The notes under the pieces: model-generated | Seen by the model: only the letters and a program-made list of their open reading frames with translations | Databases searched by the model: none | What the model was told of the DNA's origin: nothing | Assembly (NCBI RefSeq): GCF_000299365.1 | Contig: NC_018655.1 | Coordinates: 1-32,000 of the forward strand | Source of the DNA: Candidatus Nitrosopumilus koreensis AR1 | GTDB lineage: Archaea > Thermoproteota > Nitrososphaeria > Nitrososphaerales > Nitrosopumilaceae | Length of the DNA: 32,000 nt | Direction of reading: 5' to 3' | In this document: piece after piece, positions 8,070 to 15,554 of the stretch | How the letters are laid out: every line of letters begins with the position of its first letter | Numbering within the stretch: the first letter of the stretch is position 1 | Made by a program: the position numbers and the translations under genes

Positions 8070-11000
8070 ATGAATAAAAAATTTCACTCAATTGCGATCG
8101 TTTCGATATTACTTCTATCTCTGATGTCATTTGATTATTCATTTGCCATAAATTATGATTATGAAAATGATTTGACAAATAAACTTCCTCAAATATTGGA
8201 AGTAAATCTATCCGAACAAGTTGGAATTACCACAAATGATTTTCTAAATTCAATTGATAAAGAAAAATCAGAACACCACTCAATCCACTTAGTTGAAACT
8301 GTAGGTGTTATATCTCAAAACGAACTTCCATCAGAAATACATTTTGTGAAATCAATTGATGAAAAACAAACTATGATGGAAAGAATCTGGAATGCTGAAA
8401 AAATTAGATATACATCAAAACAAGTAAAAACATCATATTCTCAATTTCAAATTAACAATGAGTTAATTTATGTTAATAACGACCTAATCTTTGAACAACA
8501 AATACCTGATCACGGTTTTGACTTCTATGTTCTAGACAATGTTGATACTGCCATAATTCAATATGTAGGTGGTTTAAGTGATGAGGACACATCACTTTCA
8601 TTTTTATCTTTAGTGTTATTCCCAATTGCAGCTTTTTCTTTGTTCCAGATAGAAAATAGAGAGAATAGAATTACAAATACTAGAAAAATGTTTTCCGCAT
8701 TTTTTGTGGTTCTTCTTGTTTCAACTGTTGCTATCACACCATTATCCATATCTTCATCTTATTGGGGTATAGCTTATGCAGAAGAATTTTCTTTTGAAGG
8801 ACTAATTGATGATGTCAATAATACGATACCCTCTGATTCTACTTATATTGAAAATTCAACCGATGTTGAACCCATTCTAATTCAAGTTATCGAATCAAAC
8901 TCAACTTCTACACTCATCGAATCAAACTCAACTTCTACACTCATCGAATCAAACTCAACTTCTACACTCATCGAATCAAACTCAACTTCTACACTCATCG
9001 AATCAAACTCAACTTCTACACTCATCGAATCAAACTCAACTTCAACTGAACCTATTATCGAATCAAACTCAACTTCTACACTCATCGAATCAAACTCAAC
9101 TTCAACTGAACCTATTATCGAATCAAACTCAACTTCTACACTCATCGAATCAAACTCAACTTCAACTGAACCTATTATCGAATCAAACTCAACTTCTACA
9201 CTCATCGAATCAAACTCAACTTCAACTGAACCTATTATCGAATCAAACTCAACTTCTACACTCATCGAATCAAACTCAACTTCAACTGAACCAGAAATTA
9301 TTATCCCGGAAGCTACTGTTTCATTCCAATTTGATGAACCTATTATCGAATCAAACTCAACTAAATCCAAATCTACATTGGAACTGAATGGAAATGATAA
9401 TTTCATTCAGATTCAAAACGTTACAGTTACTGATGATGTTGATGGTATGACTGTAACTGCATGGATAAAACCTGATTATTCATCTGGTTCCCCTGAGTTT
9501 ACAGTACTAAGTAAAGAAAAATCCTTCTCATTTACTATTAATAATAAACAAAATGATCATTCTGCTTCATTTGCAGTATTTGATGGAATTAAATGGACAT
9601 CTGTTAAATCAACTACTCATATCACTGAAAACTGGAATTTTCTGTCATCTACATTTGATGGTGATAACATAGCGATATTTGTAAATGGAACAAGAGAAGG
9701 AACACAGGAAGTTGTAGGTATTCCTACACTTACAGAAAATGGAAAATTAACTACAACTACTGTTGAAAATATTCAATCCGAAGAAGACATTGTTATTGGT
9801 GCTACAATAAACACAAAGAACGAAATTCCGAAACCCAGCAACAAATTCTCAGGAGAGATAGATGATGTTTCGCTTTATGACTATGTTTTAGATGATGAAC
9901 AACTTTTTGCAATGTATGAGCAAACAAAAGAAATCTATGAAGAATTAGCAGCCATCTCTGAATTAAGCATTGAAGAAATTATTGCACAAATAGAAGCAGA
10001 ACAAGCAAATTCAGATATTTTATCAGAGAATCAAACTACAACAGAGCCTGAAAATGTTATCATTGCTAACCAAACATCATCTGATGTAGAATCTAAAGTA
10101 GTTGATTTGCCTGTATCTCCAAAATTATATCCAATAAAGAAGACATTTTCTATAAACGAAAATCCTAATCTGGAGTTTGAGTTTAACGACAAATGGGATG
10201 CTGAAGAACAAATTGTAACTGAAATCTTTGATGCAAACGGAAATCAAGTAACAGTTGATACTTCACTTGTAAAAATTAGAGATGGAAAATTCAAAATTGA
10301 TCTAGATTTTAATGAAAATCAAAAACCTGGTCTATACAAAATAAAGACTACTCTCTCAGTTGATGGAGAGATTCACGTTGTAGAGTCGGAGTTTGCATGG
10401 GGACTGGTTTCTCTTAACACAAAAAAGAGCATATACAAACCTGAAGAGACAGCCGAATTCATTATAGTTGTTCTTGATTCTGAAGGACACCCAATAGATA
10501 ATGCTGAATTGTCCATGTCCATAACCAGTCCAGCTAATGATGTCACTAACATTTCATCAGGAAACGGAATTTTTGCAGGAGATGAAGTTGGATTGTATGA
10601 TGCAGAATATGATACCACAGTTGAGGGAACATACAATATTACAATACATGCAACAACTGATGAAATTGACACAGATTTTGAAACCACATTTGATGTAGCA
10701 TCATCTTATAAGTTTGATATTATTAGAACTGCACAAAGTAAAATTGATCCTACTATAAATCTAAACGCATTTGATGTTATAATTGACATTGAATCATTTA
10801 CCAATAAAGATACCATTACAATTACAGAAACCATTCCTACAATACTTGATGTAGAAACCGACGCAAACGTAGTAACAATTGGAGACAGAAAGATTTTGAC
10901 TTGGACTAGGAATTTGATTGATAATAAAACAACAGTAGAATATACTTATTCTGTTCCATTTGTTTTTCCAAGTTTGTATGATCTGGGACCTGTTGAAATT

Positions 11001-15554: not shown

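What the first reader, a model, noticed from the sequence alone, without database searches (positions are those of the whole stretch)
8070..15554. Giant 2494-aa modular surface protein: the only clearly accessory gene in an otherwise core neighbourhood
A single 7485-nt ORF is wedged between nth and glyS. Reading along the protein, the modules are as follows. (1) N-terminal hydrophobic anchor. (2) A ~150-aa domain. (3) A TM hairpin. (4) 14 to 15 N-S-T sequon repeats. (5) A LamG-like lectin domain. (6) An acidic coiled region. (7) Beta-sandwich modules resembling MG/Ig folds (FAWGLVSLNTKKSIYKPEETAEFIIVVLDSEGHPI...GTYNITIHA). (8) A Gly/Ser/Thr-rich unknown domain ending DLDYVAIQVEY. (9) SD-rich strand repeats bracketing another unknown ~216-aa domain. 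(10) Big-type Ig modules. (11) A poly-Ser/Gly linker. (12) A ~500-aa C-terminal region with no TM, no sorting signal and no family I can name. The combination of lectin-like and Ig-like modules with dense glycosylation sites suggests an adhesin or S-layer-associated or cell-cell interaction protein. Several of its domains appear uncharacterised.
Basis: partly seen in the sequence, partly recalled or inferred. Interest (0 to 1): 0.7.

Follow-up and report, generated by a model that had tools for sequence, protein, structure and literature searches.

The report
Variable giant archaeal surface protein gene
This is a real 2494-residue, membrane-anchored, adhesin-like surface protein of the ammonia-oxidising archaeon Nitrosopumilus koreensis AR1; it belongs to an uncharacterised family that sits next to the glycyl-tRNA synthetase gene, keeps its two ends conserved, and has a middle that is reshuffled, shortened or lost between relatives.

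Summary
The ORF (8070-15554, +, 2494 aa) is real. It equals RefSeq WP_148679353.1 / NKOR_00055 of Ca. Nitrosopumilus koreensis AR1, which is annotated only as 'LamG-like'. The modules are: signal peptide, small N-domain, TM hairpin, 14-15 ESNSTST repeats, LamG, a helical acidic linker, three macroglobulin-like beta-sandwiches, two orphan domains flanked by KSLSDS repeats, Big-type Ig domains, a Ser/Gly linker, and a C-terminal region that AlphaFold models confidently as four beta-sandwiches.

The new result is that this is a Nitrosopumilaceae protein family, 759-3323 aa long. Its order is fixed: N-anchor, LamG, MG, variable middle, 'pre' domain, C-terminal tetrad. It lies convergent with glyS in every relative checked.

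- Of 67 informative species genomes, 11 keep the C-terminal tetrad next to glyS, 7 keep only decayed 3' remnants, and 47 have nothing.
- Natural 'mini' alleles fuse the anchor and stalk directly to the C-terminal tetrad.
- The nth adjacency is specific to AR1 and results from an inversion.

It is not the S-layer protein, not an alpha-2-macroglobulin and not an RTX adhesin. The function is inferred, not shown: a dispensable, fast-evolving surface fibril or adhesin. Interest is moderate.

The parts
7841..8069 (+). AT-rich intergenic region upstream of the gene. It holds a TTTTAAAA element about 24 nt before the ATG, and it is the likely junction of the AR1-specific inversion that brought nth next to the gene.
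   Evidence: Sequence read. The inversion is inferred from gene order in L003/L005/L007 and L083 compared with the window. Promoter function is an inference only.
8070..15554 (+). Complete ORF of 2494 aa plus stop codon, 268 kDa, pI 4.2. Equals WP_148679353.1 / NKOR_00055.
8070..8147 (+). Signal-peptide-like N-terminus (aa 1-26: MNKKFH + hydrophobic core + SFA). It supports the start at 8070 rather than the GenBank start at 8124.
   Evidence: Hydropathy. Relatives have equivalent N-termini. RefSeq uses the same start.
8148..8585 (+). N-domain (aa 27-172), a family-specific small domain with conserved 'I-x-L-x-E' and 'MMERI' motifs. Its fold is unresolved.
   Evidence: Alignment A2, phmmer hits to relatives, AlphaFold pLDDT <50, no Pfam or PHROG match.
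8586..8762 (+). Transmembrane hairpin (aa 173-195 and 204-231) with a short Arg/Lys-rich loop between the helices.
   Evidence: helices 177-192 and 201-222
8736..8813 (+). Conserved membrane-exit motif TPLSISSSYWGIAYA|EEFSFEGLIDD (aa 223-248). P224, S228 and A235 are invariant. Residues -3/-1 are Ala and a small residue, compatible with a signal peptidase I site after A237.
   Evidence: Alignment A2. The motif is almost unchanged in the mini alleles (YWGIAYAEEFSFEGIIDD, one Leu-to-Ile change) although their N-domain is only ~33% identical. Cleavage itself is an inference.
8814..9374 (+). Ser/Thr/Asn-rich disordered stalk (aa 249-435) with 14 ESNSTS units plus one variant unit and 16 N-x-S/T sequons. 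It is encoded by a 27/60-bp tandem repeat at 8887-9292.
   Evidence: (no structure, pLDDT ~30). Stalk length varies from 105 to 212 aa among otherwise near-identical mini alleles.
9375..9914 (+). LamG / concanavalin-A-like jelly-roll domain (aa 436-615).
   Evidence: Pfam PF13385, 50.8-60.3 bits against a cut-off of 27.6. Beta-rich AlphaFold model.
9915..10112 (+). Acidic linker (aa 616-681) with two predicted helices followed by a disordered stretch.
10113..11057 (+). Three tandem macroglobulin-like beta-sandwich domains (aa 682-996). The middle one matches Pfam MG2. This is the best-conserved block of the N-terminal half.
   Evidence: Pfam MG2, 36-42 bits against a cut-off of 32.8. AlphaFold pLDDT >90. 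Foldseek matches to C3/A2M/TEP1/CD109 MG arrays at E ~1e-10. 46-74% identity to relatives.
11058..11573 (+). Orphan domain A (aa 997-1168), rich in Gly/Ser/Thr, with one Cys pair, ending DLDYVAIQVEY.
   Evidence: No match in Pfam, PDB, PHROGs, family members, 82 related loci or metagenome contigs. GC3 of 0.15 indicates native codon usage.
11574..11933 (+). First block of KSLSDSVTISDSV-type repeats (aa 1169-1288; six units of 18-20 aa).
   Evidence: Similar repeats lie at the contig-truncated ends of many relatives.
11934..12584 (+). Orphan domain B (aa 1289-1505).
   Evidence: Only one distant relative, P0010 (26% identity, E 9e-7). No Pfam, PDB, PHROG or metagenome match.
12585..12812 (+). 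Second block of KSL(S/T)D repeats (aa 1506-1581). The independent Nitrosopumilus sp. SJ assembly breaks here, at aa 1512.
12813..13412 (+). Bacterial-type Ig-like domains (Big_5 at aa 1586-1657; Big_6-like at aa 1673-1749).
   Evidence: Big_5 scores 30.1 bits against a cut-off of 23.6. Big_6 scores 22.1, below its cut-off of 27.6. Similarity to Ig repeats of giant Pantoea proteins.
13413..13964 (+). 'Pre' domain (aa 1782-1965) with a Cys1933-Cys1947 loop, ending WTNHFTQFG. It is conserved in the family and also found in bacterial surface proteins.
   Evidence: 92 blastp hits in the family set. HMM hits in proteins that also carry SLH, cadherin-like, Listeria-Bacteroides-repeat or MBG domains. 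No Pfam model.
13965..14093 (+). Poly-Ser / Gly-rich flexible linker (aa 1966-2008).
   Evidence: (pLDDT ~30)
14094..15551 (+). C-terminal tetrad of four beta-sandwich domains (aa ~2012-2114, 2132-2247, 2255-2356, 2366-2494). This is the most conserved part of the protein. 13 of the 20 invariant columns lie in the last domain, including the Cys2399-Cys2407 loop and the ERFSITSIDP motif.
   Evidence: AlphaFold mean pLDDT 87.5. Alignment A1 of 65 sequences. 102 word-search hits. In the profile search of 1.84 billion representatives, 143 hits at E<=1e-30; that profile also covers the upstream 'pre' domain. No Pfam, NCBIfam or PDB sequence match. dN/dS of 0.125 against N. sp. SW.
15556..17013 (-). 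Glycyl-tRNA synthetase gene, convergent, with its stop codon 1 nt from the giant gene's stop. It is the conserved positional partner of the family.

Best explanation
The gene encodes a dispensable, fast-evolving cell-envelope protein of an adhesin-like or fibril type. It belongs to a Nitrosopumilaceae-specific family.

Proposed mechanism:
- An N-terminal signal peptide sends the chain through the Sec pathway (inferred).
- A small N-domain and a transmembrane hairpin hold it in the cytoplasmic membrane, with the Arg/Lys loop inside (topology inferred from the sequence).
- Everything after residue ~232 is outside the cell.
- A disordered Ser/Thr/Asn-rich stalk comes first. Its length changes by slippage of an in-frame tandem repeat, and it is possibly glycosylated.
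- An elongated chain of roughly 15-17 jelly-roll and beta-sandwich modules follows: LamG, three MG-like domains, two lineage-specific orphan domains set in KSLSDS repeats, Ig-like domains and the 'pre' domain.
- After a flexible Ser/Gly hinge comes a strongly conserved tetrad of beta-sandwiches. Its last domain is the likely conserved interaction site.
- LamG and the distal tetrad would bind ligands such as glycans, particles, other cells or the cell's own envelope. The middle acts as a replaceable spacer or specificity cassette.

Shown here: the anatomy, the family, the conserved ends and variable middle, the fixed position next to glyS, purifying but relaxed selection, and repeated loss and decay.

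Inferred only: export, topology, glycosylation and binding.
For: - The intact 7.5-kb ORF is identical to the RefSeq model.
- Relatives share the signal peptide plus two TM helices.
- All eight Cys residues fall in pairs within single modules, which fits an extracellular location.
- Pfam finds LamG, MG2 and Big_5 above their cut-offs.
- AlphaFold gives confident beta-sandwich models for aa 685-994 and 2012-2494.
- Foldseek's best matches are tandem-Ig adhesins (PrgB, antigen I/II, SiiE) and MG arrays.
- The family architecture table shows a fixed module order over lengths of 759-3323 aa. Natural variants lack LamG/MG (P0129) or everything between the stalk and the tetrad (P0031-P0038).
- The position convergent with glyS holds in N. 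sp. SW, K4, SAGs AAA799-N04 and RSA3, the mini alleles, and 11 GTDB species loci.
- A GT2/GtrA-type glycosyltransferase usually lies just upstream. An STT3/AglB oligosaccharyltransferase lies 12 kb away in the window.
- dN/dS is 0.11-0.43 for the modules against 0.028 for glyS.
- Stalk copy number varies among near-identical alleles.
Against: - There is no expression, localisation or binding data for this protein or any relative.
- The N-domain and both orphan domains could not be modelled.
- The Nitrosopumilus S-layer is a tight lattice with small pores (PMC11153153). How a membrane-anchored ectodomain of about 2200 residues is accommodated under or through it is unexplained.
- No N-glycoprotein was detected in N. 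piranensis (PMC12153357), so the sequon-rich stalk may not be N-glycosylated.
- The conserved A-x-A-like motif after the second TM helix could mean the ectodomain is cleaved off rather than anchored.
- The gene is absent next to glyS in about 70% of related species, so whatever it does is not needed in most lineages.
- aa 997-1511 rests on the AR1 assembly alone, because the SJ contig breaks at aa 1512.
Confidence: 0.6

Rival explanations
1. The ectodomain is released rather than anchored. The second TM helix acts as an internal signal sequence, and signal peptidase I cuts after Ala237 (AYA|EE). The N-module stays behind in the membrane. The ~2250-residue product is freed as a matrix or biofilm protein, or is held on the envelope through its conserved C-terminal tetrad.
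For: Ala at -3 is invariant and the residue at -1 is small (A/G/S) in all 15 aligned relatives. The motif is almost unchanged in the mini alleles (one Leu-to-Ile change) although their N-domain is only ~33% identical. A positively charged loop precedes the helix, like the n-region of a signal peptide. The tetrad and the extreme C-terminus (SE-x-ITV-x-S-x) are conserved in every variant, including the minis.
Against: The distance from the hydrophobic core to the putative site (~10-13 residues) is long for a signal-peptide c-region. No signal-peptide predictor was available here. Internal signal-peptidase processing of this kind is rare in prokaryotes. If the N-module were only a leader, its conservation would be hard to explain.
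Confidence: 0.2
2. It is an S-layer protein, or a structural tether that links the membrane to the S-layer and sets the width of the pseudo-periplasm.
For: Like the N. maritimus S-layer protein, it is an acidic array of Ig-like domains (PMC11153153). It has a membrane anchor at one end and a conserved module at the other. The anchoring of the Nitrosopumilus S-layer is not settled (PMC11153153).
Against: The whole protein and the C-terminal profile match no solved structure by sequence at E<=0.01, and no S-layer protein is among the weak matches up to E=10. That the N. maritimus S-layer structure is in the PDB copy searched was not checked. Next to glyS the gene is missing in 47 of 67 related species and decayed to a 3' remnant in 7, which does not fit an essential structural part. 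Lengths of 759-3323 aa do not fit a fixed spacer. The known S-layer protein is Nmar_1547, a different protein of 1734 aa (PMC11153153).
Confidence: 0.08
3. It is an alpha-2-macroglobulin / thioester-protein-like protease trap or defence protein.
For: Pfam MG2 hit, and Foldseek matches of aa 685-994 to C3, A2M, TEP1 and CD109 at E ~1e-10.
Against: There is no CGEQ-type thioester motif. No Pfam hit to bait-region, thioester, CUB or receptor-binding domains. Only three MG-like domains are present. The rest of the architecture (LamG, Ig, repeats) is unrelated.
Confidence: 0.02
4. It is mainly a target or decoy in virus-host conflict. As an exposed protein used as a receptor by Nitrosopumilus viruses, its middle is reshuffled and the gene is repeatedly lost under viral pressure.
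For: The pattern matches that of flexible-island surface genes: conserved ends, a mosaic middle, repeat-length polymorphism, independent deletions and pseudogenes, and neighbouring glycosyltransferases that differ between genomes.
Against: Nothing links it directly to any virus. PHROG hits are limited to the generic LamG and Ig regions, and BFVD fold matches are generic tandem Ig/FN3 proteins. Pairwise dN/dS is below 0.5 in every module, so there is no gene-wide signal of positive selection. This reading is compatible with the main explanation rather than exclusive of it.
Confidence: 0.1
5. It is an assembly chimera or a decaying, non-functional gene.
For: The genome comes from an enrichment metagenome. 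Orphan domains A and B and their flanking repeats have no independent support. The sister assembly (N. sp. SJ) breaks inside the repeats at aa 1512. Relatives show frequent decay.
Against: The frame stays open for 7.5 kb in AT-rich DNA. Module order matches the relatives on both sides of the orphan region. The orphan region has native codon usage, with GC3 of 0.14-0.15 against 0.18-0.26 in the neighbouring genes. aa 1512-2494 is 100% identical in the independent SJ assembly. dN/dS is well below 1.
Confidence: 0.05

Closest known systems
Giant repeat-rich bacterial adhesins (SiiE, LapA, MpIBP; Bap/RTX type) and Gram-positive tandem-Ig adhesins (PrgB, antigen I/II)
   Same: Very large size. A long extender of tandem beta-sandwich domains. 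Lectin-like or ligand-binding modules. One end fixed at the cell and the other distal. Strain-to-strain variation in repeat number. Foldseek ranks PrgB, antigen I/II and SiiE first for the C-terminal tetrad.
   Different: No RTX nonapeptides or type I secretion signal. No LPXTG or other C-terminal sorting signal. The host is an archaeon. The anchor is an N-terminal signal peptide plus small domain plus TM hairpin. TM-scores are low (0.15-0.25), so the likeness is at the level of generic domain strings.
Alpha-2-macroglobulin / complement C3 / TEP family (MG-domain arrays)
   Same: Three consecutive MG-like beta-sandwiches. Pfam MG2 is above its cut-off, and Foldseek gives E ~1e-10 to C3b, TEP1, A2M and CD109.
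   Different: No thioester motif, bait region, CUB, thioester domain or receptor-binding domain. Identity is 12-18%.
Nitrosopumilus maritimus S-layer protein NmSLP (Nmar_1547)
   Same: An acidic extracellular protein built from Ig-like domains in the same genus. It carries N-linked glycan densities (PMC11153153).
   Different: No detectable sequence similarity to any solved structure. NmSLP is abundant and forms the lattice, while this gene is missing from most relatives. The domain types, anchoring and length are different.
Uncharacterised 'LamG-like jellyroll fold domain-containing' / 'hemagglutinin-hemolysin-like' proteins of Nitrosopumilaceae (e.g. Nisw_04640, NsoK4_08815, the N. adriaticus 3323-aa protein, SAGs RSA3 and AAA799-N04)
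   Same: True relatives. They have the same N-anchor module, LamG, MG block, 'pre' domain and C-terminal tetrad in the same order, and the same position next to glyS where this was checked (N. adriaticus could not be checked).
   Different: The middle differs in content and length. Orphan domains A and B are found only in AR1, except for one distant match to B. None of these proteins has been studied.

Membership tests
Laminin_G_3 / concanavalin-A-like lectin superfamily (domain level) | Match to Pfam PF13385 above the curated cut-off | tested here: met
   50.8 bits (whole protein) and 60.3 bits (segment) against a cut-off of 27.6, aa 440-611
MG2 macroglobulin domain (domain level) | Match to Pfam PF01835 above the curated cut-off, with an MG-like fold | tested here: met
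   36.1 and 42.3 bits against a cut-off of 32.8. AlphaFold pLDDT >90 and Foldseek matches to C3/A2M MG arrays.
Alpha-2-macroglobulin / thioester-containing proteins (whole-protein membership) | Thioester motif (CGEQ), with bait-region, thioester and receptor-binding domains | tested here: not met
   No C[GA]E[QN] motif. No Pfam hit to any A2M-specific domain at E<=1.
RTX / type I-secreted giant adhesins | C-terminal GGxGxD nonapeptide repeats | tested here: not met
   No GG.G.D motif. No HemolysinCabind Pfam hit.
Archaeal S-layer protein (NmSLP type) | Sequence homology to the known Nitrosopumilus S-layer protein | tested here: not met
   No PDB chain matched at E<=0.01 with either the protein or the C-terminal profile, and no S-layer protein appears among the weak matches. 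The NmSLP structure is published (PMC11153153), but its presence in the PDB copy searched was not verified.
Archaeal S-layer protein (NmSLP type) | Present in essentially all members of the lineage | tested here: not met
   No trace next to glyS in 47 of 67 informative species loci and decayed in 7. Copies elsewhere in those genomes were not excluded.
Archaeosortase (PGF-CTERM / PEF-CTERM) or C-terminal TM-anchored surface proteins | C-terminal sorting motif followed by a hydrophobic helix | tested here: not met
   No hydrophobic segment after aa 231. The C-terminus is ...SEMITVYSD.
glyS-linked Nitrosopumilaceae giant surface-protein family (defined here) | N-module: signal peptide, small domain, TM hairpin, TP-x-SIS...AYA exit motif | tested here: met
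   Alignment A2 and HMM hits
glyS-linked Nitrosopumilaceae giant surface-protein family (defined here) | C-terminal four-beta-sandwich tetrad at the very end of the protein | tested here: met
   65-sequence alignment, AlphaFold model and HMM hits
glyS-linked Nitrosopumilaceae giant surface-protein family (defined here) | Gene convergent with and abutting glycyl-tRNA synthetase | tested here: met
   1-nt gap in the window. The same arrangement is seen in L001, L002, L083-L086 and 11 GTDB loci.
N-glycosylated archaeal surface glycoprotein | Glycans attached at N-x-S/T sequons | not testable with these tools
   There are 42 sequons, 16 of them in the stalk, and an STT3/AglB gene in the window. 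Published evidence in the genus is mixed (PMC11153153 against PMC12153357).

The most novel reading that the evidence does not exclude
The two invariant ends form a previously undescribed archaeal surface-display system. The N-module (signal peptide, small domain, TM hairpin, A-x-A exit motif) would be a dedicated export and processing device that releases the ectodomain. The conserved C-terminal tetrad would dock it onto the envelope, for example onto the flexible inner domains of the S-layer protein. The exchangeable middle would be the displayed cargo, and its turnover and repeated loss would be driven by viruses that use it as a receptor.
Probability: 0.1. Interest if true: 0.7.

Novelty: new variant of a known kind. 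Interest (0 to 1): 0.4.

Why it matters
Ammonia-oxidising Nitrosopumilaceae are among the most abundant archaea in the ocean, and almost nothing is known about their surface beyond the S-layer lattice. This locus is a well-defined, positionally fixed hot spot of surface variation. At the same site next to glyS it carries full-length, shortened, decayed and absent alleles. That makes it a practical marker for strain-level diversity. It is also a candidate for attachment to particles or sediment, and for virus-host interaction. The conserved N-anchor and C-terminal tetrad are concrete targets for antibodies, pull-downs and cryo-ET. If the protein does cross or dock to the S-layer, it would bear on how large proteins are displayed on archaeal envelopes. 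None of this is yet more than inference, and giant variable adhesin-like genes in flexible regions are a familiar theme, so the interest is moderate.

Tried and rejected
- Whole-protein and segment scans against Pfam, NCBIfam and PHROGs, and sequence searches of the PDB, named only LamG, MG2/YtkA, Big_5 and a weak Big_6. Nothing was found for the N-domain, orphans A and B, the 'pre' domain or the C-terminal tetrad.
- The third homolog search used orphan A and orphan B joined into one query. It returned nothing, not even the source protein, probably because low-complexity words filled the candidate list. That search was wasted.
- Both metagenome-contig scans with orphan B and orphan A found no relative.
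- AlphaFold on aa 1-1200 did not resolve the N-domain, the stalk or orphan A.
- Literature searches for the protein, its family, or LamG/adhesin genes in Nitrosopumilus found nothing specific. The gene is not in the genomic-island tables of the AR1 genome paper.
- Rejected: alpha-2-macroglobulin membership (no thioester), RTX adhesin (no repeats), S-layer protein (no homology, accessory distribution), and foreign-DNA chimera (GC3 of the orphan region is 0.14-0.15, as low as or lower than native genes).
- The N. adriaticus homolog could not be located on a contig. The AR1 genome itself and N. maritimus did not appear among the 80 loci returned by the glyS scan, so the status of N. maritimus was not determined.

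
Full report
**1. The observation.**
The window holds one uninterrupted ORF at 8070-15554 on the + strand (ATG start, 2494 codons). 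It is flanked by nth (7169-7840, HhH-GPD) and by a convergent class II glycyl-tRNA synthetase gene (15556-17013, minus strand). Only one nucleotide separates the two stop codons.

The exact sequence is RefSeq WP_148679353.1, 'LamG-like jellyroll fold domain-containing protein', of Candidatus Nitrosopumilus koreensis AR1. The GenBank model NKOR_00055 starts 18 codons later and so cuts into the hydrophobic N-terminus. Relatives begin with the same kind of Lys-rich, then hydrophobic, N-terminus, so the start at 8070 is the better one.

The rest of the window is housekeeping: NFACT, aconitase X, AP endonuclease, both primase subunits, UPF0182, eIF2 subunits and tetrapyrrole methylases. There is also an STT3/AglB oligosaccharyltransferase at 27676-29811.

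**2. Anatomy.**
Hydropathy gives three hydrophobic segments: aa 5-28, 173-195 and 204-231. There are none after that.

Pfam names three domains above their curated cut-offs and one below:

| Domain | Residues | Score (bits) | Cut-off (bits) |
|---|---|---|---|
| Laminin_G_3 | 440-611 | 50.8-60.3 | 27.6 |
| MG2 | 784-874 | 36.1-42.3 | 32.8 |
| Big_5 | 1586-1657 | 30.1 | 23.6 |
| Big_6 | 1673-1749 | 22.1 | 27.6 (not reached) |

 NCBIfam, PHROGs and PDB sequence searches add nothing specific.

The stalk (aa 249-435) carries 14 ESNSTS units plus one variant unit. It is encoded by a 60-bp tandem repeat with 7 copies at 97% identity. The protein is acidic (pI 4.2) and 25% Ser+Thr. It has 42 N-x-S/T sequons, and its eight Cys residues fall in pairs within single modules.

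AlphaFold with a 23-sequence alignment of aa 1-1200 was confident only for two parts. One is the LamG region. The other is three consecutive beta-sandwiches at aa 685-994 (pLDDT >90). The N-domain, the stalk and aa 1000-1200 were not resolved. Foldseek aligned the sandwich array to the macroglobulin-domain arrays of C3b, TEP1, alpha-2-macroglobulin and CD109 at E about 1e-10 and 12-18% identity.

AlphaFold with a 65-sequence alignment of aa 1990-2494 gave a mean pLDDT of 87.5. It shows four beta-sandwich domains after a disordered Ser/Gly hinge. The best structural matches are generic strings of Ig/FN3-like domains: PrgB, antigen I/II, SiiE, complement MG domains and phage fibre proteins. TM-scores are low. 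At the sequence level, however, they form a family-specific module with no Pfam model in the query or in ten relatives.

**3. It is a family with fixed ends and a replaceable middle.**
The first homolog search returned giant, uncharacterised proteins from several sources:

- Nitrosopumilus sp. SW (3064 aa)
- Nitrosopumilus sp. K4 (3146 aa)
- N. adriaticus (3323 aa)
- single-cell genomes RSA3 and AAA799-N04 (about 2300 aa each)
- Nitrosarchaeum and Nitrosotenuis

Pairwise comparison shows shared blocks at the N-terminus, LamG, the MG block and the last 500-1000 residues. The region between them is unrelated.

A search with the C-terminal 505 residues found 102 proteins. A profile search of 1.84 billion representatives found 143 at E<=1e-30, though that profile also covers the upstream 'pre' domain. 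Those hits that carry organism names are almost all Nitrosopumilaceae, and the library holds no names. In most hits the match runs to the very end of the protein.

HMMs built from my alignments give a consistent architecture:

N-module - stalk - LamG (1-3 copies) - triple MG - variable region - 'pre' domain - Ser/Gly linker - C-terminal tetrad.

Some natural variants lack LamG and MG (P0129, 1273 aa). Others lack everything between the stalk and the tetrad (P0031-P0038, 759-866 aa). In these 'mini' alleles the stalk ends with the same PEAT(V/I)SFQ(F/L)DE sequence that precedes LamG in AR1. It is then joined to residue ~2082, inside the first C-terminal sandwich. Among these otherwise near-identical alleles the stalk is 105, 124, 168, 187, 190 or 212 residues long, so the repeat number is polymorphic.

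The N-module alignment has invariant P224, S228 and A235 in the motif TP-x-SIS-x-SYWG-x-AYA at the exit of the second TM helix. The following EEFSFEG(L/I)IDD is kept in AR1 and the minis apart from one Leu-to-Ile change, although their N-domains are only ~33% identical.

In the tetrad, 13 of the 20 invariant columns lie in the last domain. They include a Cys-x7-Cys loop and ERFSITSIDP.

The 'pre' domain (aa 1782-1965, ending WTNHFTQFG) also occurs in proteins that carry SLH, cadherin-like, Listeria-Bacteroides-repeat or MBG domains, that is, in bacterial-type surface proteins.

Orphan domain A (aa 997-1168) has no detectable relative anywhere. Orphan domain B (aa 1289-1505) has one distant relative, in P0010.

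**4. Genomic context and evolution.**
In N. sp. SW, N. sp. K4, both single-cell genomes and the mini alleles, the gene is convergent with glyS. AP endonuclease, the two primase genes and UPF0182 follow, exactly as in the window. The upstream side differs. It usually holds a GT2/GtrA-type glycosyltransferase, a 216-aa ORF and a racemase-like gene, and in K4 also polysaccharide-synthesis genes. It does not hold nth.

In the closest relatives by glyS identity (L003, L005, L007; 95%), glyS is followed directly by that glycosyltransferase. Next comes the block racemase - two TP-methylases - methyltransferase - NFACT - AcnX - nth. That block is in the opposite orientation, relative to glyS, to the one in the window. 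So AR1 carries an inversion of this block. Only in AR1 does nth sit next to the gene's 5' end, and the conserved linkage is to glyS.

Among the 80 GTDB species loci fetched with glyS, 67 were informative:

| State next to glyS | Loci |
|---|---|
| Full C-terminal tetrad | 11 (most contigs then break inside the gene) |
| Tetrad cut by the contig end | 2 |
| Internal 3' remnant of 53-227 codons | 7 |
| No trace | 47 |

The remnants lack start codons or are frameshifted. L006 is a multi-frame pseudogene that still shows anchor, LamG and tetrad pieces. In L016 the remnant abuts the next gene. This indicates an old gene at a fixed site with repeated, independent shortening and loss.

The 3' end may survive longest because it overlaps the terminator region of the abutting glyS gene. 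This is my inference.

Pairwise dN/dS against N. sp. SW and K4 is 0.11-0.43 for LamG, MG, 'pre' and the tetrad, against 0.028 for glyS. dS is near saturation, so these values are rough. Selection is purifying but relaxed.

**5. Integrity of the sequence.**
An independent assembly, Nitrosopumilus sp. SJ, contains a partial protein that is 100% identical to aa 1512-2494. Its contig ends inside the second KSLSDS repeat block. The 3' 40% is therefore independently confirmed, while aa 997-1511 rests on the AR1 assembly alone.

Several points argue against a chimera. Module order on both sides matches the relatives. The frame is open throughout. Third-position G+C of the orphan domains is 0.14-0.15, as low as or lower than in neighbouring native genes (0.20-0.26). 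Their higher overall G+C comes from amino-acid composition.

**6. What it most likely does.**
The parts point to a Sec-exported protein held in the membrane by a TM hairpin, with the Arg/Lys loop on the cytoplasmic side. All of residues ~232-2494 would lie outside the cell. They comprise a flexible stalk of variable length, then a long chain of jelly-roll and beta-sandwich modules, then a hinge and a conserved distal tetrad.

This is the build of adhesins and surface fibrils, and I commit to that reading at about 0.6. LamG and the last tetrad domain are the likely binding sites. The middle would be a spacer or specificity cassette.

Export, topology, glycosylation and binding are all inferred. 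Two points are unresolved:

- The membrane-exit motif obeys the -3/-1 rule of signal peptidase I (invariant Ala, then a small residue). The ectodomain may therefore be released rather than anchored (rival, 0.2).
- The Nitrosopumilus S-layer is a tight cation-sieving lattice (PMC11153153). How so large an ectodomain lies under it or passes through it is unknown.

Glycosylation of the sequon-rich stalk is plausible. The window has an AglB gene, and 17 N-glycan densities were seen on the N. maritimus S-layer protein (PMC11153153). It is not assured, because no N-glycoprotein was found in N. piranensis (PMC12153357).

**7. Comparison with known families.**
- It works like giant tandem-Ig adhesins but is not a member of the RTX or LPXTG groups. 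It has no nonapeptide repeats and no C-terminal sorting signal.
- It contains MG domains but is not an alpha-2-macroglobulin. It has no thioester motif, bait region or receptor-binding domain.
- It is not the S-layer protein. No solved structure matches it by sequence, it is absent from most relatives, and the known S-layer protein is Nmar_1547 (PMC11153153).
- Its true relatives are uncharacterised 'LamG-like' or 'hemagglutinin-hemolysin-like' proteins of Nitrosopumilaceae.
- I found no paper that describes the family. It is not in the genomic-island tables of the AR1 genome paper.

**8. Verdict.**
The gene is not a one-off insertion between nth and glyS. It is the AR1 allele of a glyS-linked, hypervariable surface-protein family with an unusual N-terminal anchor module and a conserved C-terminal tetrad.

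I rate it a new variant of a known kind (giant variable surface proteins in flexible genome regions), with interest 0.4. The most novel reading still open is a dedicated display system: a cleavable N-module, a docking C-terminal tetrad and virus-driven turnover of the middle. I give that about 0.1.

Noticed in passing
window 27676-29811 (+): A 711-aa STT3/AglB-type oligosaccharyltransferase (Pfam STT3, E 4e-31) lies 12 kb downstream of the giant gene. AR1 therefore has the enzyme needed for N-glycosylation close to a gene with 42 sequons.
   Followed up: partly
window 8070-8123: The GenBank model (AFS79937, NKOR_00055, 2476 aa) starts at Met19 and removes most of the signal peptide. RefSeq WP_148679353.1 and the relatives support the start at 8070.
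   Followed up: yes
window 218-7840 compared with L003/L005/L007 11456-21213 and L083 1-7525: The block racemase-like / two TP-methylases / methyltransferase / NFACT / AcnX / nth is inverted relative to glyS in AR1 compared with its closest relatives. One breakpoint lies in the 229-bp spacer upstream of the giant gene. The other is outside the window.
   Followed up: partly
L006 11463-13535; L016 11485-11646; L019 11485-11865; L035 11470-12111; L040 11481-11978; L044 11473-12546: Decayed 3' remnants of the gene (53-227 codons of the C-terminal tetrad, some without a start codon, one multi-frame pseudogene) persist directly next to glyS in several species. L044 has a 358-aa ORF with its own signal-peptide-like N-terminus fused to about 227 residues of the C-terminal region.
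   Followed up: partly
L083 8001-10526 and L084 556-3081 (proteins P0031-P0038): Mini alleles (759-866 aa) recovered from metagenome assemblies differ almost only in the number of NST stalk repeats (stalk of 105-212 aa). This is a clear case of in-frame tandem-repeat length polymorphism.
   Followed up: yes
L001 3073-4248; L083 4786-5952; L085 3623-4774; L086 1922-3085; L003 11598-12788: A conserved GT2 + GtrA-like glycosyltransferase of about 385-397 aa (dolichyl-phosphate-sugar-synthase type) sits close to the 5' side of the giant gene, or directly next to glyS where the gene is absent. For L003 the identification rests on ORF size and position only; no domain scan was run. In AR1 it is not in the window.
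   Followed up: no
window 23594-24556 (+): A 320-aa protein combines an N-terminal Peptidase_C39-like domain with TPR repeats. TPR proteins also lie upstream of the giant gene in N. sp. SW and K4.
   Followed up: no
L014 (JAKIUE010000008.1) and protein P0101: A contig with a 93%-identical Nitrosopumilus glyS is binned as 'Sulfurovum sp.', and a C-terminal-tetrad fragment is labelled 'Flavobacteriaceae bacterium'. Both look like mis-binned thaumarchaeal contigs.
   Followed up: no
window 13413-13964 (aa 1782-1965): The 'pre' domain ending WTNHFTQFG has no Pfam model. It recurs, sometimes twice, in proteins that also carry SLH, cadherin-like, Listeria-Bacteroides-repeat or MBG domains (typical of bacterial surface proteins; the search library gives no organism names). 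It looks like an unnamed, widespread surface-protein domain.
   Followed up: partly
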